DNA from: Escherichia phage MikeNSara
DNA length: 50,759 bases
Direction: 5' to 3' (one strand)
Sequence record: OR896827.1
The notes under the pieces are model-generated. The model was given only the letters and a program-made list of their open reading frames with translations. It ran no database searches and was not told the DNA's origin. Below are positions 26,559-50,759 of this stretch, piece after piece. Made by a program: the position numbers and the translations under genes. Each line of letters opens with the position of its first letter. The stretch's first letter is position 1.

Positions 26559-27035
26559 TTAGCTATTCGTGCTGTTATCACCTTTGTAGAATCGTCCGCC
26601 TGGTTCGTAGTCTGAATTTTTGACTACGCGCAACATTTCGTATTTGTCGCAACGGGTAGTAAGAGGCTTGCCGTTAGAATCAAACCGCAGATCTGGACGA
26701 CAAAATGATGCGCGGTATCCTTTGCACCCATTATATTTGTAGTCGTTATGCACCTTTTGTGCTCCAGCGGCTGAAATCATACCACGCTTTCGCCACTGGT
26801 TAACGACTTGCTGAGATACGCGCAGACGTCGGGCCATAGCAGGAACACCGCCGTAATACTCGATCAGAATGTCAAGGCGAGATTTCAGACTTGCTTTTAC
26901 CTCATCTCGCAGGATAAGAAATCCGGTTCGGTGTTTTCGTGGCTTTTTGTCTTTACCTCGTCGCGTTCCGTTGTTACCGTTAATAGTGCGCTTGTCGATC
27001 TCACCAGTAGATACTGCAATTCGTGCATCTTTCAT
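26559..27035 (-). CDS. HTH DNA-binding protein (Cro/YdaS-like)
   Basis: RBS GAGGTG; central helix-turn-helix GGVPAMARRLRVSQQVVNQWRKRG; basic N-terminus. Confidence 0.5.
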   Translation of the reverse strand: MKDARIAVSTGEIDKRTINGNNGTRRGKDKKPRKHRTGFLILRDEVKASLKSRLDILIEYYGGVPAMARRLRVSQQVVNQWRKRGMISAAGAQKVHNDYKYNGCKGYRASFCRPDLRFDSNGKPLTTRCDKYEMLRVVKNSDYEPGGRFYKGDNSTNS

Positions 27036-31187: not shown

Positions 31188-32303
31188 ATGAAAAATGTAA
31201 AAATTACAGATGAGCAATTCAAGATCGAACGGGCGGCGGGTAAGACATATAAACAGATCGCTCAAGAGTACGGGATGAATGTGAGAAGCGTCGAGCGTCG
31301 CGCTGCGCGTCTTGCAAAACAAGGACAGGTGTCAACCATTGGAGCGCCTGGTTTTGGTGTTCATGGTGAGTCAGTAATGACAGACAAAGAAGGCAATATA
31401 ATCCTCAAGTGGACAAAAACCAGCAAGGACAAAGAGCAATTAGAAGCATTGATGCGCGCAGCAATGGAGGCGTTTAGCGAGGAAGTGCCGCGATTAGATC
31501 CAGTTCCATTGCAGGAGCGTAACTATAATGAAACGCTTTCATTGTATCCGATCTTTGACATGCACTTAGGAGCTATGGCCCATAAGCACGAATGCGGAGA
31601 AAATTGGGATACAGCTACGGCTGAGCGCGTTATGAATAACTTTATCGACTATGCTTTGATGTGCGCACCGGACAGCGAAAAGGCTGTTATCCTGATTGGT
31701 GGCGATATGCTGCATAGCGACGGCCTGGAGGCTGTGACACCTGCAAGCGGTCACGTACTTGATCAAGATAGCCGATATGCAAAATTGGTTTACGTTGCAA
31801 TCCGCGCAATGCGTCGCGCAATTAATAAAATGCTGTTAAAGCATAAACATGTTGAGGTCCAGATCGTAGAGGGCAATCACGACCAATCAGGAATGATTTG
31901 GCTACGCGCAGCAATGGCGGCAGCATATGAGAACGAGCCGCGCGTTTACGTTGATGTTTCTCCTCGCGTTGTTCACCACACGCAATACGGAAAAACTTTC
32001 CTTGCGTACCATCACGGGCACACAGTGCGCAAACCTGAGACTTTGCTAATGATGTGCGCGTCAGATTGGCGGGAGGACTTCGGAAACTCAAAAACGATGT
32101 ATGCGCACGTAGGGCACTGGCATCACCAGACAGTGACGGAAACGTCGCTTGGGATCGTGGAGGTACATAGCACCCTGGCGGCAAAAGACGCATACGCCGC
32201 GCGAGGTGGCTGGAGATCTCGACGCCGTGCGGCGGTTATCATTTACGACAAAGAGCATGGAGAAGTCGGGCGATTTGTTCACTATCCAGAAATGATGAAT
32301 TGA
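31188..32303 (+). CDS. HTH-containing calcineurin-like metallophosphoesterase
   Basis: N-terminal HTH (KTYKQIAQEYGMNVRSVERRAARLAKQG) fused to phosphoesterase motifs DMHLG, GGDMLHSD, GNHD, HHGH, GHWHH; start moved from TTG 31038 to ATG 31188. Confidence 0.6.
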   Translation: MKNVKITDEQFKIERAAGKTYKQIAQEYGMNVRSVERRAARLAKQGQVSTIGAPGFGVHGESVMTDKEGNIILKWTKTSKDKEQLEALMRAAMEAFSEEVPRLDPVPLQERNYNETLSLYPIFDMHLGAMAHKHECGENWDTATAERVMNNFIDYALMCAPDSEKAVILIGGDMLHSDGLEAVTPASGHVLDQDSRYAKLVYVAIRAMRRAINKMLLKHKHVEVQIVEGNHDQSGMIWLRAAMAAAYENEPRVYVDVSPRVVHHTQYGKTFLAYHHGHTVRKPETLLMMCASDWREDFGNSKTMYAHVGHWHHQTVTETSLGIVEVHSTLAAKDAYAARGGWRSRRRAAVIIYDKEHGEVGRFVHYPEMMN

Positions 32304-36702: not shown

Positions 36703-37409
36703 TTTGAGTTTGACTCAAAGACGGCGCGAGCAAAGCCGCGCGGAGTGAGAGAGCGGATCATCTTTGTGCGCGATGACTTGCCGCCAGTTTTGGCCCAGCC
36801 TGGATTATCTTTGTCTTCCTCTTTCGGCAGGATTAAAGCGCGTGGAGGAATAACAAAGCCGTTGCCAGTCCAGAGGCACGTTTTCTTAAAATAGCGATCC
36901 CGCGCCGGAATAATATCAGGGAAGTCGGGATGTTTATCATCTTCCGGCAGATAGCCAGCGTAATCGCACGGATGGAACGTATAATCAGGCTTTCGCCATA
37001 ACGTTGACAACTTGCCAACCGGATTTTCGATCATGTAAGGAACGCCGAAATAATCAGCTATATCAGCCGCGATCCTGCAAGTGTCGGCGGCCTCATCCTG
37101 GAACGATGGATTCTCAAGGCGTTTTTTGGCCCAATGGCGAGATCCGCTATTTGCAAGGTCAGTGCACGGCGGAAATGCCATAATAAAGTCAGGAATGCCC
37201 CATTCCTCCCAGCGCGCGCGGTGGTAAAATCTTTCATCAATCCAGACGTTAACATATTCGATATTCTCATGCTGTATGCGCACTGACTGGTAATCACCGT
37301 GATCGCCGCCGTCAGCATTAAAGCAAATGCACTTATAGCCATTATCAGCCCAATCTTTAACGGCTTTACCAGATCCATCAAATAGGGAGAATATTAAACC
37401 TTTATACAT
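36699..37409 (-). CDS. putative DNA (cytosine-5)-methyltransferase-like protein (short form)
   Basis: FSLFDGSG (motif I-like), PPCTD (PC motif), ENPVG (ENV motif); only ~236 aa; start moved to ATG 37409 with RBS GAGGT. Confidence 0.5.
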   Translation of the reverse strand: MYKGLIFSLFDGSGKAVKDWADNGYKCICFNADGGDHGDYQSVRIQHENIEYVNVWIDERFYHRARWEEWGIPDFIMAFPPCTDLANSGSRHWAKKRLENPSFQDEAADTCRIAADIADYFGVPYMIENPVGKLSTLWRKPDYTFHPCDYAGYLPEDDKHPDFPDIIPARDRYFKKTCLWTGNGFVIPPRALILPKEEDKDNPGWAKTGGKSSRTKMIRSLTPRGFARAVFESNSK

Positions 37410-37419
37410 CGTAATTACC

Positions 37420-37644
37420 TCAAAACGGAAAACAGCGCGCACAACCAGGATCGAAATCGCATCCACAATCATTAACAATCATAGTGGGATCTGCAAATAT
37501 TGCGCTTGATTCAAGATCCATATCCATATCACCTAAAGCCTCATCAAGAGTCTTAATTTTATATGCCACTTCAAGCGCCGCCTCTTTATTTAGTCCGGCA
37601 TCTTCTGCCATTTGAAGGCGTTCAAAAAATCCGTCTTGACTCAT
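37420..37644 (-). CDS. hypothetical protein
   Basis: RBS AAGGAG; acidic; C-terminal CGCDFDPGCARC cysteine cluster. Confidence 0.5.
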   Translation of the reverse strand: MSQDGFFERLQMAEDAGLNKEAALEVAYKIKTLDEALGDMDMDLESSAIFADPTMIVNDCGCDFDPGCARCFPF

Positions 37645-39888: not shown

Positions 39889-40098
39889 TCAGATACGCCC
39901 ATACAGATCACAGACTTCGTTGATAAAACAGCGTTGAGACTCTTTATCCTGCTTCTCAAACATCGCACGGCACTCATAGCGGTGATTATGCACGATGACA
40001 ACAACCATATTTTCAGGTGCTGACGGGTGACGCGCGGAAGCATCGCAGATTGAAACATCCATACCCATCTCATGTGCTTTCTTGATCACATCCAACAT
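39889..40098 (-). CDS. hypothetical protein
   Basis: Start moved from TTG 40122 to ATG 40098 (RBS AGGAG). Confidence 0.45.
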   Translation of the reverse strand: MLDVIKKAHEMGMDVSICDASARHPSAPENMVVVIVHNHRYECRAMFEKQDKESQRCFINEVCDLYGRI

Positions 40099-40352
40099 TT
40101 TTTCTTCTCCTGCAATAAGCAAACATCATTGATAAAATCAGCACGGCCCTTAATGTTGCTGATGTGGAACGTCTTTTCAGCGTACAGGCCATCACCTTCA
40201 ATCACGATCATTACGCGAGTCGGTTTATTCACGGGCGCACACGAAAAGAGTGGTCGCGCCGGAAGAAATTTAGTAGCCACATCCAGGTTAGCCCTGGCGG
40301 CCCTGCAAAATGCCTCCGCCAGATCCAAATCATTTTCGGTAATCACCGCCAT
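40086..40352 (-). CDS. hypothetical protein
   Basis: RBS GAGGAG; ATG overlaps upstream stop. Confidence 0.5.
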   Translation of the reverse strand: MAVITENDLDLAEAFCRAARANLDVATKFLPARPLFSCAPVNKPTRVMIVIEGDGLYAEKTFHISNIKGRADFINDVCLLQEKKKCWM

Positions 40353-40624
40353 TACTTCTTGATCTCCTCACTGATAAATTTCAGCACCTGACGCAAGAAA
40401 ACCTCGTTGTTGATAGTCGCTGGCAATTCTTCTTTCACTTCTTGCGGCAGATAGATATTGCCGTGCCAGGTCAAGCAATCGTAGTTGATACGATAAGAGC
40501 AAAGCCACTCGCAATCGTTATCTGCTTCCCAAATGCAGAGTTGCAGAACATCGCCAAAATCTTCAACAGTCAGATCCAGACCGTGACGCTTAGCGAAATT
40601 GAAAGTGGTTTTGCTGATGTTCAT
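40352..40624 (-). CDS. hypothetical protein (first gene of leftward early operon)
   Basis: RBS AGGAG; ~30 nt downstream of motif promoter 40659..40702. Confidence 0.5.
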   Translation of the reverse strand: MNISKTTFNFAKRHGLDLTVEDFGDVLQLCIWEADNDCEWLCSYRINYDCLTWHGNIYLPQEVKEELPATINNEVFLRQVLKFISEEIKK

Positions 40625-40658
40625 TGCTATCTCCTGAGCGGTTCGTTTCGATGTGTGT

Positions 40659-40702
40659 AATGTACCCGATCAGACGGCCTGAGTTTTAACAAAAAGTGCT
40701 AT
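40659..40702 (-). promoter_or_regulatory. motif-type promoter cassette (leftward)
   Basis: Reverse complement of canonical 20-mer at 40683..40702, 18-bp spacer, -10 TACATT (as read on minus strand); ATG 40624 downstream. Confidence 0.55.
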
Positions 40703-40733
40703 TTGACGGTTAGCGCCAGGATTGTGATCGAAA

Positions 40734-40824
40734 TAATCAAAAGTAATCATTCGTAATCAAATCACGTCAAAATGATGATTGCCTTTGCAAATTTGATGAG
40801 AAAAGTAATCACGTTTAATCATTG
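40734..40824. promoter_or_regulatory. iteron-like cluster of (G)TAATCA repeats
   Basis: At least six copies of TAATCA / AGTAATCA within ~90 bp, just upstream of the leftward motif promoter. Confidence 0.4.
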
Positions 40825-40959
40825 GTTGCAGGGGAGATAGTGAAACCTCCTCCTCTTGCCTCACTTTTCCGCCTGGCTGTCAGTGGTTGTTATGTTCCGT
40901 TCCCGCCTGTTCTTTTGTTGACCTTCCGCAAAATACGATAACAAAAAATAACAAACAAT

Positions 40960-41298
40960 ACCTATATAATACATTGAAAAATAAGGATTATTTATTTATA
41001 TGTATCTATATATTCTCTTTTGTTATCTTGGTTATTGTGGTATTTGGTGGGGGTATATAGTTTTTGTGTATCTGTATGTGTGTATGGGTATGTAGGGGCA
41101 TATATATCTATATGGCACTTTCCGCGAGAAAACTTCGATAACAGGCAATGATAACATTGATTTATAAGGAAAAATAACGCCTATATTGTTATTGTGCCAC
41201 CATATAAAATTGATAAAACACGCGGGAACAAGAAAAAACAGTTGACACATTAAATAGCATTATTGATAATGCCCACACCTAACAACCAGGAGGCAGAA
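40960..41298 (+). repeat. AT-rich control region, paralog B
   Basis: See paralog A; alternating purine-pyrimidine TG/TA tracts and A-tracts upstream of consensus sigma70 promoter. Confidence 0.6.
41242..41270 (+). promoter_or_regulatory. sigma70-type promoter (TTGACA-17-GATAAT) for rightward early operon
   Basis: Consensus -35, 17-bp spacer, GATAAT -10; A-tract upstream; ATG 41299 about 28 nt downstream. Confidence 0.65.
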
Positions 41299-41763
41299 AT
41301 GAGCGAGCAATCATTCACTGACACGCTGCGCCGTGCCGCTATTATGCTGGCTAATGGCGAGGAAGAGACGATCAAGATTCCTGACGCGTATTTGCAGGTC
41401 CACATGTTCGGCAAGAAGTCGGCAAGCAATCCGGCGGCCTACATTCGCCAGATCATGAGTCGAGTGCCAGAAGTCGCCGAGCGGGGGCGCGTATCCGTTA
41501 CCCGTGGCGTTTACGGGCCGGAAGATGAAAACTTCGGTAGCACTTTCTACGAGGTGCGGATTGTTGAAGGCCGTCGCAAGGTTTACAACAAAGAGGCACT
41601 GGAAAGGGCAGTACGCCAGGCTAAGCGCAAGGTTGCAGAGGCGATCATTGATATGTCACCCAACCTGGCAAACTATGCGCCGGAAGAGTACGAAACATTA
41701 TCAAAGGCCGTCGCTGACTTTCACGCGATGATCAAAAAAACTTTCCTGGAGGATGAGCAATGA
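41299..41763 (+). CDS. hypothetical early protein (first gene of rightward early operon)
   Basis: Start moved to ATG 41299 with RBS AGGAGG; ~25 nt downstream of TTGACA-17-GATAAT promoter. Confidence 0.55.
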   Translation: MSEQSFTDTLRRAAIMLANGEEETIKIPDAYLQVHMFGKKSASNPAAYIRQIMSRVPEVAERGRVSVTRGVYGPEDENFGSTFYEVRIVEGRRKVYNKEALERAVRQAKRKVAEAIIDMSPNLANYAPEEYETLSKAVADFHAMIKKTFLEDEQ

Positions 41764-42032
41764 AAAAGGCATTAATCAGTGTTTTGGTGGCAATGGCATT
41801 CCTGACCGGATGTAAAGAAGATGGCGCGCATGTTGGCAATGTGCAGATGGCTAACCCTGGCGATGACTACAACGTAAGGGAGCTATTCACCGCTGACGGA
41901 TGCACTGTTTACCGATTCTATGACGATCGCACTGTTTACTTTACCAACTGCAAGGGCGCGACTAGCTGGGAAGCATCGAAAAGCAATGGCAAAGGCACGA
42001 CAACAGAATATATGACCGTAGAAACAAAATAG
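41760..42032 (+). CDS. putative lipoprotein
   Basis: ATGA overlap; signal peptide with lipobox LTGC (MKKALISVLVAMAFLTGC). Confidence 0.55.
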   Translation: MKKALISVLVAMAFLTGCKEDGAHVGNVQMANPGDDYNVRELFTADGCTVYRFYDDRTVYFTNCKGATSWEASKSNGKGTTTEYMTVETK

Positions 42033-42072
42033 CACTTTTTGTTAAAACGCCAGGCGCAAAGCCTGGCATAAT
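42029..42072 (+). promoter_or_regulatory. motif-type promoter cassette
   Basis: Canonical 20-mer overlapping stop of 41760..42032, palindromic 18-bp spacer, CATAAT. Confidence 0.55.
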
Positions 42073-42589: not shown

Positions 42590-43480
42590 ATGTTAAAACT
42601 TACTGACATTAAATTCCCGATCACCTTCGAATCTCGCGGCGTTGGTCATTTCATGTTTACAGACGAGAAGACATGCACTAAGTTTAACGAATACGGAAGT
42701 CCAAACGCTTCAACAATGGAGATTGAACACTTCATTGAAGCGCACAATAAACACTACAACTCACTCAGAGACTACGGTTACGCAATGCCAGGCTACACCT
42801 GTTTCCACTACAAGCCATATAAAGGCCAGGTGTTGCCAGTGCGCTCACCGGAACGCGCAGAGATTCCGATGGTCAATATGAAAACCTGCGACTACAAAAA
42901 GCTGTGGTGCTTAAGTGTGGACAATATCAAGTATCCGATCACGTTCCACACGACTGGTAAGTCAACGATTCGCTACACATCACGCGACAATGGCGTTTAT
43001 AGCGATGGTACGAAATCAGAGTTGAAAGTTGATTTCTTTGTCAACGGTCACAACAAATTCAATCCGCACAACGAAGAGGATAAAGTGTACTACGTGGAAG
43101 ACATTACAAAACACTTGTTTGGAGAAACTCCATTCGGCGGCGGAAAGACGTCAATTCAAAAAATCATTGGCGAGGAGATCCACAAAGCGGCTGCCGAAAT
43201 GAAAGCGCCTGGAGGCTGGCGTATTGATAAGAGCGCCTTTGCAAATCAAGAAATCGTAACGCAGGGCGCGATTGAAGATATGCCAGTTGCAGCCACGCTA
43301 AAAGGAGTCCGGCTTGATGATGGTGTGTGGTTTGAATTAACGGCTACACCAAAGACGATCGAGATTCATGATGATGTTGTTATCCTCCTGCTTCACTACG
43401 GCGGCACTAAAAATCGGACTGTTGCAGGTGAGATCAGCATCAAGCGCGGAACGATGGTTAAGTGGAAGGTAAAGATTTGA
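42590..43480 (+). CDS. hypothetical protein with internal tandem duplication
   Basis: RBS AGGAG; two ~55-aa modules share IK(F/Y)PITF ... F(I/V).(A/G)HNK pattern. Confidence 0.55.
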   Translation: MLKLTDIKFPITFESRGVGHFMFTDEKTCTKFNEYGSPNASTMEIEHFIEAHNKHYNSLRDYGYAMPGYTCFHYKPYKGQVLPVRSPERAEIPMVNMKTCDYKKLWCLSVDNIKYPITFHTTGKSTIRYTSRDNGVYSDGTKSELKVDFFVNGHNKFNPHNEEDKVYYVEDITKHLFGETPFGGGKTSIQKIIGEEIHKAAAEMKAPGGWRIDKSAFANQEIVTQGAIEDMPVAATLKGVRLDDGVWFELTATPKTIEIHDDVVILLLHYGGTKNRTVAGEISIKRGTMVKWKVKI

Positions 43481-43556
43481 GTTTGTTCACTGCGGCGCAC
43501 GTCGCCGCATGGATCGGATTGTTTGCCTACCTGTTTAGATTTTATTGAGGTGAGAG

Positions 43557-47816: not shown

Positions 47817-48107
47817 ATGGCAAACAAAACTTACCGCAAACTACTGGTTAACGCTTTTGAAAACATCGCGCAGTCTAACAAGTGGAACGACTCTAAACAC
47901 TCGCCAGTCACAATGAAGCGCGTCGGATTCAAAAATGCTCGTTCATGGGCGCGAGCTTTCGCAGCTTGCTATATGCCGGATGGTGGACTAGGAGCGATGG
48001 ACGATTTTTTGATCAACATGATAGAGGAAGCTGCGCGAGAGGATCGACCGCTGACACAGCGAGATTTTGATGACTTCGCGCGCGATGAGCTTTACTATCT
48101 GAGCTAA
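47817..48107 (+). CDS. hypothetical protein
   Basis: RBS AAGGGGA; stop abuts motif 48107..48126. Confidence 0.5.
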   Translation: MANKTYRKLLVNAFENIAQSNKWNDSKHSPVTMKRVGFKNARSWARAFAACYMPDGGLGAMDDFLINMIEEAAREDRPLTQRDFDDFARDELYYLS

Positions 48108-48150
48108 TAGCACTTTTTGTTAAAACTTCCGCAAGGGCATTTGATAAAGT
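48107..48150 (+). promoter_or_regulatory. motif-type promoter cassette
   Basis: Canonical 20-mer, 18-bp spacer, TAAAGT; gene 48183 downstream. Confidence 0.5.
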
Positions 48151-50154: not shown

Positions 50155-50157
50155 AAA

Positions 50158-50183
50158 TCACCCGCCGCACGGCGGGTTTTTTA
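50158..50183 (+). terminator. intrinsic terminator before terminase small subunit gene
   Basis: CCCGCCG-CA-CGGCGGG plus T6. Confidence 0.7.
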
Positions 50184-50232
50184 TTGCCCGTTGTTTGGTA
50201 TAATCAGGCATCTAACCAAAGGAGGATTAACA

Positions 50233-50759
50233 ATGGCTAAAAACGTTGAGCCTGCTGTAAAGGCATTAAATTTCAAAGAGTTATATAATAAAACCTATGG
50301 CGATATTGTTACGCTAAACAACCGCCACAAGTACACGCCGGAACAGGTTTTTGATATGGCGATCCGCTATTTTACGTGGGCCGAAGAGAATCACATCCAG
50401 GCGGCTGAAACAGCTTCCTTTCAGGGTGACGTGTACGAGAGCAGAGTTTACAAGCCTCGCGTTTTCACGGTTAACGGATTCAGCTTGTATCTCGGCGTTA
50501 CTGAGGCGGCTGTAAGCAAATGGCGTAAAGAGCCTGGATTCTGCGATGTGATGGAGTTTGTTGATAAAGTAATTTACGAGCAAAAATTCCAGCTTGCGGC
50601 AAATAACATGATTAACGCTGGATTTATCGGTAAAGAGATCGGAGTAGAGAAGCCAGCAACAGTGAGCGTTGAAGCGAGCGCGGCAGCTAATGCAAGCATT
50701 GACGCAGTAACTGCCGATGAGGTGAAAGAGGCTGTGATTGATATTCTGGAGCAACTTTA
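50233..50759 (+). CDS. terminase small subunit (3' end runs off window; closes on base 1 if circularised)
   Basis: RBS AAAGGAGG; open frame from ATG 50233 to window end with no stop; HTH-like segment FTVNGFSLYLGVTEAAVSKWRK typical of small terminase DNA-binding domains; the last two bases TA plus window base 1 (A) form an in-frame TAA. Confidence 0.6.
   Translation, partial: MAKNVEPAVKALNFKELYNKTYGDIVTLNNRHKYTPEQVFDMAIRYFTWAEENHIQAAETASFQGDVYESRVYKPRVFTVNGFSLYLGVTEAAVSKWRKEPGFCDVMEFVDKVIYEQKFQLAANNMINAGFIGKEIGVEKPATVSVEASAAANASIDAVTADEVKEAVIDILEQL

What the first reader, a model, noticed from the sequence alone, without database searches (positions are those of the whole stretch)
40734..40824. 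Iteron-like cluster of TAATCA repeats between the divergent early promoters
At least six copies of (G)TAATCA, in both orientations, occur within ~90 bp just upstream of the leftward motif promoter at 40659..40702, inside the 674-bp non-coding divergent region. Such arrays typically bind a repressor or activator, or act as origin iterons.
Basis: seen in the sequence. Interest (0 to 1): 0.5.

Follow-up and report, generated by a model that had tools for sequence, protein, structure and literature searches.

The report
Phased TAATCA repeats at phage pac site
A real, non-random array of five helically phased TAATCA repeats in a T1-like coliphage lies just upstream of where relatives' packaged DNA begins, so it is most likely where the small terminase binds to start DNA packaging, not an early-gene operator or a replication origin.

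Summary
The window is a complete T1-like coliphage (Drexlerviridae, Warwickvirus). The repeat cluster is real but smaller than described: five exact TAATCA, all on the + strand, as 3 + 2 copies spaced exactly 10 bp (40734/44/54 and 40806/16). There is also one inverted degenerate copy (TGATTG, 40776). It is the only 10-bp-phased hexamer triple in the genome (0 of 300 simulations gave any).

Position decides the interpretation. GenBank records of T1, TLS, Rtp, SU57, Pocis76 and XY3 are all opened inside the homologous divergent intergenic region. A PhageTerm terminus published for MSK falls there too. XY3 carries an identical TAATCA cluster and starts at window-equivalent 40839/40840, 18 bp right of the last repeat, inside a family-conserved box GGGGAGATA|GTGAAAC.

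Related motifs (YAATCA/TGATTR) are enriched at the same place in other genera (14 observed, 3.1 expected). The phage's small terminase is P22 gp3-like.

Best reading: a small-terminase recognition array of the pac site, comparable to the P1 pac hexamers or SPP1 pacL. That the cluster lies in the pac region is well supported; that the terminase binds it is inferred. An operator role for the adjacent leftward early promoter-like element remains a serious rival, and origin iterons are poorly supported. Covariation could not separate small terminase from the HTH regulator.

The parts
40734..40759 (+). Left sub-array: three exact TAATCA copies (40734, 40744, 40754) with exactly 10-bp spacing and different spacers (AAAG, TTCG)
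   Evidence: It is the only phased hexamer triple in the window, and 0 of 300 simulations gave one.
40759..40764 (+). Degenerate copy AAATCA, half a turn out of phase
   Evidence: Read directly from the sequence.
40776..40781 (-). Inverted degenerate copy: TGATTG on the + strand, CAATCA on the - strand. It sits within ATGATGATTG, a string shared with the TLS pac region. T1 has the related ATGATGAGATGTGATTG.
40806..40821 (+). Right sub-array: two exact TAATCA copies (40806, 40816) spaced 10 bp, starting 72 bp after the first copy (about 6.9 helical turns)
   Evidence: In tiwna, EC125 and ityhuna copy 4 is CAATCA, which shows that the motif is YAATCA.
40831..40846 (+). Purine-rich box GGGGAGATAGTGAAAC, unique in the genome and recognisable across genera. 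The predicted pac end lies between 40839 and 40840.
   Evidence: Single occurrence. The XY3 record, which has an identical cluster, opens at GGGGAGATA|GTGAAACC. Pocis76 opens at the homologous GGTTGTA|GTGACG. Related boxes occur in Hanrivervirus, W011D and T1.
40684..40704 (-). The TAATCA array begins 30 bp upstream of it.
   Evidence: 24 copies in the window against 2.8 expected. Described for TLS, T1 and Rtp in PMC11447400.
40352..40624 (-). First gene of the leftward early operon (90 aa, phrog_6147, function unknown)
40912..41240 (.). AT-rich, mosaic part of the gap (GC as low as 22%). A TATATA/GT-rich core is flanked by two TCCGC-N8-10-GATAACA copies. Candidate origin or packaging-related bend, not part of the TAATCA array.
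   Evidence: Only 15 records share most of the window's 40300-41600 stretch that includes this part, whereas 60 share the TAATCA module.
41242..41270 (+). Strong sigma-70-type promoter (TTGACA-17-GATAAT, 11 of 12 matches) for the rightward early operon
   Evidence: A TTGAC-type -35-like hexamer sits at the corresponding position in the other genera.
41299..41763 (+). First gene of the rightward early operon (154 aa, DUF7174)
50233..50759 (+). Small terminase gene (175 aa), the candidate binder of the array. Its stop codon TAA is completed by base 1 of the window, which is the start of the large terminase gene.
   Evidence: Pfam GP3_package at 3.8e-11, phrog_606 terminase small subunit, and PDB 3P9A (P22 gp3) at 1.7e-15.
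26559..27035 (-). HTH protein (158 aa, weak YdaS/Cro-type HTH) next to the primase gene.

Best explanation
The TAATCA array is part of the pac (packaging initiation) region of this T1-like, headful-packaging phage. It most likely acts as the recognition platform for the small terminase.

Proposed mechanism:
- The ring-shaped, P22-gp3-like small terminase engages the five direct YAATCA repeats. They are spaced one helical turn apart, so all lie on one face of the DNA. The two sub-arrays are about seven turns apart, and the DNA wraps or bends around the oligomer.
- This positions the large terminase to make the first cut about 20 bp to the right, in or near the conserved box GGGGAGATA|GTGAAAC (about 40839/40840).
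- Packaging then runs rightward through the early genes and the terminase genes. It ends one headful later, which generates the terminal redundancy.

Shown:
- The array is real and phased.
- It lies in the region where the relatives' genome ends and record origins lie.
- Related motifs recur there in other genera.
- The small terminase is of the pac (gp3) type.

Inferred:
- That the small terminase is the protein that binds the repeats.
- The exact cut position in this phage.
- The wrapping geometry.
For: 1. Position.
- The T1 RefSeq record is opened in the homologous gap, 162 nt from the first leftward gene, and annotates bases 1-2800 as the repeat region, consistent with T1's terminal redundancy.
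- TLS opens 195 nt into its gap. Its pac was located by restriction mapping of the submolar pac fragment.
- The PhageTerm start published for MSK (36,862, forward strand; PMC8421802) lies 222 nt into its gap.
- The SU57 record start was set from PhageTerm plus a step in read coverage. It lies 18 nt from the MSK position.
- Rtp, Pocis76 and XY3 also open in this gap.
- XY3 has the same TAATCA cluster as the window and starts 18 bp right of it.
- PMC7718038 states that pac lies in this untranslated region in T1-like phages but has not been identified.

2. Anatomy.
- The array has 3 + 2 direct repeats at exactly 10-bp spacing, and the spacers are not conserved.
- AA/TT dinucleotide periodicity at lag 10 has z = 2.9.
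- This matches the architecture of known pac sites with repeated small-terminase or PacA elements next to the cut (P1 pac hexamers, SPP1 pacL/pacR; from my own knowledge of the literature).

3. Cross-genus motif recurrence in sequence that cannot be aligned.
- YAATCA/TGATTR counts in the 170 nt right of the repeat element are 6 in the window (0.38 expected), 5 in T1 (0.64), 3 in Hanrivervirus (0.49), 3 in TLS (0.74), 2 in W011D (0.65) and 1 in Pocis76 (0.54). Outside the window that is 14 against about 3.1.

4. The small terminase is P22 gp3-like, which is a pac-type headful system.

5. The module 40705-40911 is inherited with the core genome.
- It occurs in exactly the same 60 GenBank records as the 98-100%-identical small terminase.
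- Both immediate neighbours recombine freely. The left gene is found in 185 records, and the window's version of the right-hand stretch is largely shared by only 15.
Against: - There is no binding or cleavage data for this phage.
- How the XY3, Pocis76 and Rtp record starts were chosen is undocumented.
- Mapped or assigned ends differ by up to about 100 bp relative to shared landmarks (T1 162 nt, SU57 239 nt from the left gene).
- P22-type small terminases are known to recognise one asymmetric 22-bp site inside their own gene, not hexamer arrays 9.4 kb away.
- The motif is weak or absent in some relatives (Pocis76 has 1, W011D has 2). These instead carry TTGCA/ATTGCA-type repeats.
- Within the 60-record clade, substitutions are not visibly rarer inside the hexamers than in the spacers.
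- The HTH regulator is also at least 99% identical in 60 records (not checked to be the same 60), so covariation cannot single out the small terminase.
- The array sits directly upstream of a promoter-like element, which suits a transcriptional role equally well.
Confidence: 0.45

Rival explanations
1. The array is an operator or activator array for the leftward early operon. A phage regulator, or a host regulator that binds direct repeats, would occupy the phased TAATCA sites just upstream of the 21-nt promoter-like repeat element and switch leftward early transcription on or off. Candidate phage regulators are the HTH protein 26559-27035 or an early protein.
For: - The array starts 30 bp upstream of the repeat element that heads the leftward operon.
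- Direct repeats at 10-bp spacing are typical of OmpR/PhoB-family regulators. GTAAT-N5-GTAAT resembles the CpxR box GTAAA-N5-GTAAA at 4 of 5 positions in each half (the consensus is from memory).
- Hanrivervirus, T1 and TLS carry palindromes, which look like operators, at the equivalent place.
- A Cro/YdaS-like HTH protein is encoded by the phage and is at least 99% identical in 60 records, the same number that hold the module.
Against: - None of the other 23 repeat elements in the genome has TAATCA repeats next to it.
- No regulator gene is adjacent, and the flanking genes have no DNA-binding domain hits.
- The upstream region of the HTH gene has no TAATCA.
- The conserved core is TAATCA rather than GTAA.
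- The strong rightward promoter is about 420 bp away.
- This reading does not explain why genome ends map here.
Confidence: 0.25
2. The TAATCA repeats are origin iterons. They would bind a replication initiator and, together with the neighbouring AT-rich segment, form the phage origin.
For: - An AT-rich stretch (GC 22-27%) with its own repeats lies 100-250 bp to the right.
- The origin of T1-like phages is unknown (PMC11447400).
- The region is non-coding and its architecture is conserved across genera.
Against: - The repeats have a 6-bp core on a 10-bp period, not 17-22 bp iterons.
- No initiator-like gene is adjacent. The primase, the helicases and the HTH gene lie roughly 4-14 kb away.
- There is no DnaA box or IHF consensus in the gap.
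- GC skew only follows the direction of transcription.
- The AT-rich part is swapped among close relatives while the TAATCA module is not.
Confidence: 0.1
3. No dedicated sequence-specific binder exists. The phased AATCA/A-tract repeats would only provide intrinsic curvature or binding for a host nucleoid protein, or they are a by-product of local sequence evolution.
For: - AA/TT periodicity at lag 10 (z = 2.9).
- After correction over all hexamers, the count alone is only modestly unusual (21 of 200 simulations).
- No extra conservation of the hexamers relative to the spacers within the clade.
Against: - Exact hexamer identity in five copies with unrelated spacers.
- It is the only phased triple in the genome, and 0 of 300 simulations gave one.
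- The same core motif recurs in other genera where the surrounding sequence cannot be aligned.
Confidence: 0.15

Closest known systems
Bacteriophage P1 pac site (PacA/PacB)
   Same: - Short hexamer repeats in two clusters (4 + 3 in P1, 3 + 2 here) within about 160 bp or less.
- The repeats are associated with the first cut of a headful-packaging phage.
- The phage encodes its own Dam-type methylase.
   Different: - P1 hexamers are TGATCA/G. They contain GATC and are regulated by methylation, whereas TAATCA has no GATC.
- In P1 the cut lies between the clusters. Here the best-supported end (40839/40840) lies just right of both clusters, although T1's own record start would fall between them.
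- The terminase proteins are unrelated to PacA.
SPP1 pac (pacL-pacC-pacR) bound by small terminase G1P
   Same: Repeated short boxes and phased A-tracts lie on one side of the cleavage site. They are bound by a ring-shaped small terminase that bends or wraps the DNA, and packaging is unidirectional from the cut.
   Different: - The box sequences differ.
- SPP1 pac lies within or next to the terminase genes. Here it is 9.4 kb upstream, in the early divergent promoter region.
- No right-hand (pacR-like) repeat set was identified here.
P22 / Sf6 pac recognised by gp3-type small terminase
   Same: The small terminase of this phage is a homologue of P22 gp3 (PDB 3P9A, E = 1.7e-15). Packaging is headful, with imprecise ends spread over tens of base pairs.
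   Different: P22 pac is a single asymmetric 22-bp sequence inside gene 3, not a phased hexamer array in an intergenic region far from the gene.
T1-family pac region as described so far (T1, TLS, Rtp, SU57 papers)
   Same: It is the same locus: the gap between the two divergent blocks of small early genes, next to the 21-nt repeat element.
   Different: Published work places pac here only roughly. It proposes other determinants: an AGATTT match to P22 pac in TLS, and ATATA repeats in T1. The YAATCA/TGATTR repeats and the conserved box had not been pointed out in the papers I could read.
Plasmid or phage origin iterons and response-regulator direct-repeat operators (for example the CpxR box)
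   Same: Direct repeats on one face of the helix in a non-coding control region.
   Different: - The unit length and flanking features of iterons are missing.
- The match to the CpxR box is partial, and the conserved core is shifted.

Membership tests
pac site of a headful-packaging phage | The phage encodes a pac-type small and large terminase pair | tested here: met
   The small terminase is Pfam GP3_package, phrog_606 and a homologue of PDB 3P9A. The large terminase gene starts at window base 1.
pac site of a headful-packaging phage | The physical end of the first packaged genome maps to the site | tested here: inconclusive
   No reads were available for this phage. In relatives the ends or record origins fall in the homologous gap: T1, TLS, Rtp, MSK (PhageTerm), SU57, Pocis76, and XY3, which has an identical cluster and starts at window-equivalent 40840. 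How several of these record starts were chosen is undocumented.
pac site of a headful-packaging phage | Sequence elements bound specifically by the small terminase next to the cut | not testable with these tools
   The repeats are present and phased, but binding needs EMSA or footprinting.
pac site of a headful-packaging phage | The site is sufficient to direct packaging of foreign DNA | not testable with these tools
   This needs a plasmid transduction assay.
P1-type pac (methylation-controlled TGATCA/G hexamers) | The hexamer repeats contain GATC | tested here: not met
   TAATCA has no GATC. Only one GATC (40726) lies near the array.
Replication-origin iterons | Three or more direct repeats of about 17-22 bp with conserved full-length units | tested here: not met
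   Only a 6-bp core is conserved, on a 10-bp period, and the spacers differ.
Replication-origin iterons | An adjacent AT-rich unwinding element and host-factor sites (DnaA, IHF) | tested here: inconclusive
   An AT-rich stretch is present at 40912-41250, but there is no DnaA box or IHF consensus in the gap.
Replication-origin iterons | A cognate initiator gene containing or adjoining the repeats | tested here: not met
   The flanking genes are phrog_6147 and DUF7174, with no initiator or DNA-binding hits.
Repressor or activator operator array at a promoter | The sites overlap or closely flank a promoter core, and a cognate regulator is encoded | tested here: inconclusive
   The array lies 30-120 bp upstream of the promoter-like repeat element, whose function is itself unknown. 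The sigma-70 promoter is about 420 bp away. An HTH protein exists, but no link to the motif was found.
CpxR box (GTAAA-N5-GTAAA) | Both pentamers match the consensus | tested here: not met
   The best pairs are GTAAT-N5-GTAAT and GTAAT-N5-TTAAT. The conserved core extends 3' (TAATCA) rather than 5'. The consensus was recalled from memory.

The most novel reading that the evidence does not exclude
The phased YAATCA array plus the conserved GGGGAGATA|GTGAAAC box would be the first sequence-level definition of a T1-family pac site. In this reading a gp3-type small terminase ring reads direct hexamer repeats one helical turn apart. Different Drexlerviridae genera would have swapped the repeat type (TAATCA direct repeats, TTAATCA/GGAATA palindromes, ATTGCA/TGATTG repeats) while keeping the cut box. 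Because the array abuts the leftward early promoter-like element, terminase binding late in infection could also shut that operon off.
Probability: 0.3. Interest if true: 0.55.

Novelty: new member of a known kind. Interest (0 to 1): 0.42.

Why it matters
T1 is one of the classical T phages and a notorious laboratory contaminant. Its pac site has been mapped only roughly since the 1970s-80s, and none of the papers I could read identifies it at sequence level.

A concrete candidate, a recognition array plus a cut box, makes the question directly testable by footprinting and plasmid-packaging assays. It would help annotators orient Drexlerviridae genomes consistently. It bears on how P22-gp3-type small terminases choose DNA, and on generalized transduction by T1-like phages and their engineering.

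If instead the array is an operator, it would identify the first regulatory site of the T1-family early operons.

Tried and rejected
- **Covariation of the module with candidate binders.** The module 40705-40911 occurs in exactly the 60 records that hold a 98-100%-identical small terminase. The HTH regulator is also at least 99% identical in 60 records. BEBK14 and MatMar, the nearest genomes with a different module, are only about 78% identical genome-wide. The test therefore cannot discriminate.
- **Footprinting within the clade.** Eleven sequences are 94-98% identical, and the few substitutions are not depleted in the hexamers. This is uninformative.
- **IMG/VR scans.** A single-protein scan with the DUF7174 gene found only 2 loci. 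The 16-mer box gave 34 loci, mostly chance hits.
- **Rfam on the gap.** Only sub-threshold noise was found.
- **GC skew.** It tracks the direction of transcription and is uninformative about an origin.
- **DnaA and IHF consensus.** There are no hits in the gap.
- **Lambda test of T1's reported packaging start between genes P and Q.** That report is recalled from memory. The only 3-copy TGATTR/YAATCA cluster of lambda is at 43411-43493, inside the P-Q interval, but the chance of that is about 0.07. A T1 13-mer spanning T1 base 1 matches lambda gene P. The result is suggestive only.
- **Literature.** The T1 genome paper and the Rtp paper are not held. Several PhageTerm-citing papers gave no coordinates.
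- **Other YAATCA pairs.** Two further YAATCA-N4-YAATCA pairs (31874, 37466) lie in coding DNA, and I judged them probably coincidental.

Full report
**What the window is.** The 50,759-bp window is a complete, circularly permuted copy of a T1-like coliphage (Drexlerviridae, Tempevirinae, Warwickvirus). It is 99% identical over 40300-41600 to phages NorthRox, atuna and tiwna. It starts at the large terminase ATG. The small terminase gene (50233-50759) ends with a stop codon that is completed by base 1.

**Where the finding lies.** The finding sits in the 674-bp gap 40625-41298. On its left is the first gene of a leftward block of small early genes (40352-40624, phrog_6147). On its right is the first gene of a rightward block (41299-41763, DUF7174). 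The same layout is kept in Hanrivervirus, Changchunvirus, Tlsvirus, Tunavirus (T1) and the Rtp-like phages.

**The observation.**
- Exact TAATCA occurs five times in the stated interval, at 40734, 40744, 40754, 40806 and 40816. All five are on the + strand.
- The copies form a triplet and a doublet with exactly 10-bp spacing. The two sets start 72 bp apart, about 6.9 helical turns, so all copies face roughly the same side of the helix.
- The four-base spacers differ (AAAG, TTCG, CGTT), so only the hexamer is kept.

**Is it more than chance?**
- Five copies in 90 bp was never reached for this hexamer in 200 first-order Markov simulations.
- A correction over all hexamers leaves the count alone only moderately unusual (21 of 200 simulations).
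- The phasing removes the doubt. This is the only hexamer-N4-hexamer-N4-hexamer triple in the genome, and none appeared in 300 simulations.
- YAATCA-N4-YAATCA occurs five times against 0.06 expected.

**The 'motif promoter'.** It has 24 copies here. It has already been described for TLS, T1 and Rtp as an element of unknown function about 76 nt upstream of start codons (PMC11447400). The TAATCA array starts 30 bp upstream of the copy at 40684-40704. None of the other 23 copies has such an array.

**Comparative anatomy of the gap.**
- The module 40705-40911, which holds the array and the following box, is present in exactly 60 GenBank phage records at 94-98% identity.
- The left gene and its repeat element extend to 185 records.
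- Only 15 records cover at least 80% of the larger 40300-41600 query, which includes the AT-rich right part of the gap.
- The module therefore has sharp recombination boundaries on both sides.
- Outside the 60-record clade the sequence between the repeat element and a purine-rich box (window GGGGAGATAGTGAAAC, 40831-40846) cannot be aligned. It is again built from short repeats:
  - Hanrivervirus has TTATTCC..TATTCC-ATTAATCA-GGAATA..GGAATAA and a perfect TTAATCA-N2-TGATTAA palindrome.
  - T1 has TAATCA-N6-TGATTG and three further TGATTG, two of them within GTGATTGTTGC.
  - TLS has a run of TGATTG/TGATTA/TGATTT.
  - W011D and the Rtp-like phages have TGATTG plus TTGCA/ATTGCA repeats.
- I counted YAATCA/TGATTR in the 170 nt right of the repeat element. 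The counts are 6 in the window (0.38 expected), 5 in T1 (0.64), 3 in Hanrivervirus (0.49), 3 in TLS (0.74), 2 in W011D (0.65) and 1 in Pocis76 (0.54). Outside the discovery sequence that is 14 against about 3.1. The core motif is thus a family feature of this spot, although it is not universal.

**The key lead: this gap is where T1-family genomes begin.**
- The T1 RefSeq record is opened inside the gap, 162 nt from the first leftward gene. It annotates bases 1-2800 as a repeat region, consistent with T1's terminal redundancy.
- TLS is opened 195 nt into its gap. Its authors located pac by restriction mapping of the submolar pac fragment and chose the exact base by resemblance to P22 pac.
- The Rtp record opens inside its repeat cluster.
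- For MSK, an Rtp-like phage, PhageTerm gave a forward start at 36,862 (PMC8421802). I find that this is 222 nt into the homologous gap, just right of the repeat cluster.
- The start of SU57 was set from PhageTerm and a step in read depth (PMC7718038). It lies 18 nt from the MSK position. That paper states that pac lies in this untranslated region in T1-like phages but has not been identified.
- Two records from different laboratories open at the homologous nucleotide of the conserved box: Pocis76 (..GGTTGTA|GTGACG) and XY3 (..GGGGAGATA|GTGAAACC).
- XY3 belongs to the window's clade and carries an identical TAATCA cluster. Its start corresponds to window 40839/40840, 18 bp right of the last repeat.
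- Transferred by distance from the left gene, the seven positions span window 40786-40863. The array spans 40734-40821.

**Best explanation.** The array is most likely the recognition part of pac. Pac-type phages need a small terminase to mark the concatemer next to the first cut. The known examples use repeated short elements beside the cleavage region: the P1 hexamers, and the SPP1 pacL boxes with phased A-tracts (established knowledge, recalled from memory). Here the small terminase is a P22 gp3 homologue (Pfam GP3_package, PDB 3P9A at E = 1.7e-15), which is a ring oligomer. Direct repeats one helical turn apart are what identical subunits of a ring would read on DNA wrapped around it. That last step is inference. 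I put 0.45 on this full statement. I put much more, about 0.8, on the weaker statement that the first packaging cut of this phage falls within about 100 bp of the array.

**Rival: an operator or activator array for the leftward operon.**
- In favour: the array is next to the promoter-like repeat element; other genera have palindromes at the same place; direct repeats at 10-bp spacing are typical of response regulators (a partial CpxR-box resemblance); and the phage encodes a Cro/YdaS-like HTH protein.
- Against: no other repeat element has such sites, no regulator gene is adjacent, and the HTH gene's own upstream region lacks the motif.

**Rival: origin iterons.** This reading is weak. The repeat unit is too short, no initiator gene adjoins the repeats, and there are no DnaA or IHF sites in the gap. 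The neighbouring AT-rich segment (40912-41250) is exchanged among close relatives while the TAATCA module is not. That AT-rich segment, with two TCCGC-N8-10-GATAACA copies around a TATATA/GT-rich core, is itself a better origin candidate.

**What failed to discriminate.**
- The 60 records with the module are exactly the 60 with a 98-100%-identical small terminase. The HTH regulator is also at least 99% identical in 60 records. The closest genomes with another module are about 78% identical overall. This shows only that the module travels with the core genome rather than with its mosaic neighbours.
- Within-clade variation is too low for footprinting. Two natural variants were seen: TAATCG in copy 3, and CAATCA in copy 4. 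The second supports the degenerate form YAATCA.
- Rfam and GC skew were uninformative.
- A side test on lambda, where T1 is reported to start packaging between genes P and Q (recalled from memory), gave only a weak hint.

**Verdict.** The 'binding array' idea is right in kind. The most probable function is packaging initiation rather than early-gene control or replication. This would be a new member of a known kind of element, and a directly testable candidate for a pac site that has remained undefined at sequence level in a classical phage family.

Noticed in passing
window 40831-40846: The purine-rich box GGGGAGATAGTGAAAC is unique in the genome and recognisable in most genera. Two unrelated GenBank records, XY3 and Pocis76, are opened at the same nucleotide inside it (TA|GTGA). 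It is a candidate pac cleavage site.
   Followed up: partly
window 40912-41250: This is an AT-rich segment with GC as low as 22% and conserved architecture. Two direct TCCGC-N8-10-GATAACA copies (about 40924-40944 and 41121-41142) flank a TATATA-rich and then GT-rich core. Its sequence is swapped even among 95%-identical relatives. It could be an origin or a packaging-related bend. An earlier paper, cited in PMC8421802, guessed that ATATA repeats form the T1 pac.
   Followed up: partly
whole window, for example 40684-40702(-), 42029-42047(+), 48107-48125(+): There are 24 copies of the 21-nt element ATAGCACnnnTTGnTAAAA, almost all oriented with the local genes. It does not fit a sigma-70 promoter: TTGTTA and a TACATT -10-like hexamer are 22 nt apart. 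The 63 bp around the copy at 40642-40704 is conserved even in Klebsiella phages. It is known from the TLS paper, but its function is still open.
   Followed up: partly
window 31874-31889 and 37466-37481: Two further exact YAATCA-N4-YAATCA pairs (CAATCACGACCAATCA and CAATCATTAACAATCA) lie on the + strand inside coding DNA, where 0.06 such pairs are expected genome-wide. The first encodes the GNHDQS motif of the exonuclease. They are probably coincidental, but they could be secondary sites.
   Followed up: partly
window 50157-50232: A GC-rich hairpin with a T-run (CACCCGCCGCACGGCGGGTTTTTT) is followed immediately by a TTGCCC-17-TATAAT promoter just upstream of the small terminase gene. This suggests a separately controlled late packaging transcript.
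   Followed up: no
window 50758-50759 plus base 1: The small terminase stop codon TAA overlaps the large terminase ATG across the ends of the window (TAATG). The window is therefore a circular permutation opened at the large terminase gene, not at a physical end.
   Followed up: yes
GenBank records MG0656xx ('Campylobacter phage A15a, C4, A118' and others): About 20 records labelled as Campylobacter jejuni phages match this coliphage's early region and small terminase at 70-90% identity. They look like T1-like coliphage sequences, either mislabelled or contaminants.
   Followed up: no
L053 (SLUR29) 745-1047: SLUR29 has an extra small gene inserted between the first leftward gene and the TAATCA array. 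It is preceded by a second copy of the same leader and 21-nt repeat element, which suggests gene cassettes are inserted by recombination at the repeat elements.
   Followed up: partly
L061 (lambda) 43411-43493 and 39898-39910: Lambda's only 3-copy TGATTR/YAATCA cluster lies in ninI, between genes P and Q, where T1 is reported to start packaging lambda DNA. A 13-mer spanning T1 base 1 (TTGTTGCATGGTG) matches lambda gene P exactly. The statistics are weak.
   Followed up: partly
window 26559-27035 (-): The HTH protein next to the primase has homologues in 801 phage records at E <= 1e-40, mostly across the family. Its position in the replication module suggests that it could be a replication or primase-loading factor rather than a transcription regulator.
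   Followed up: no
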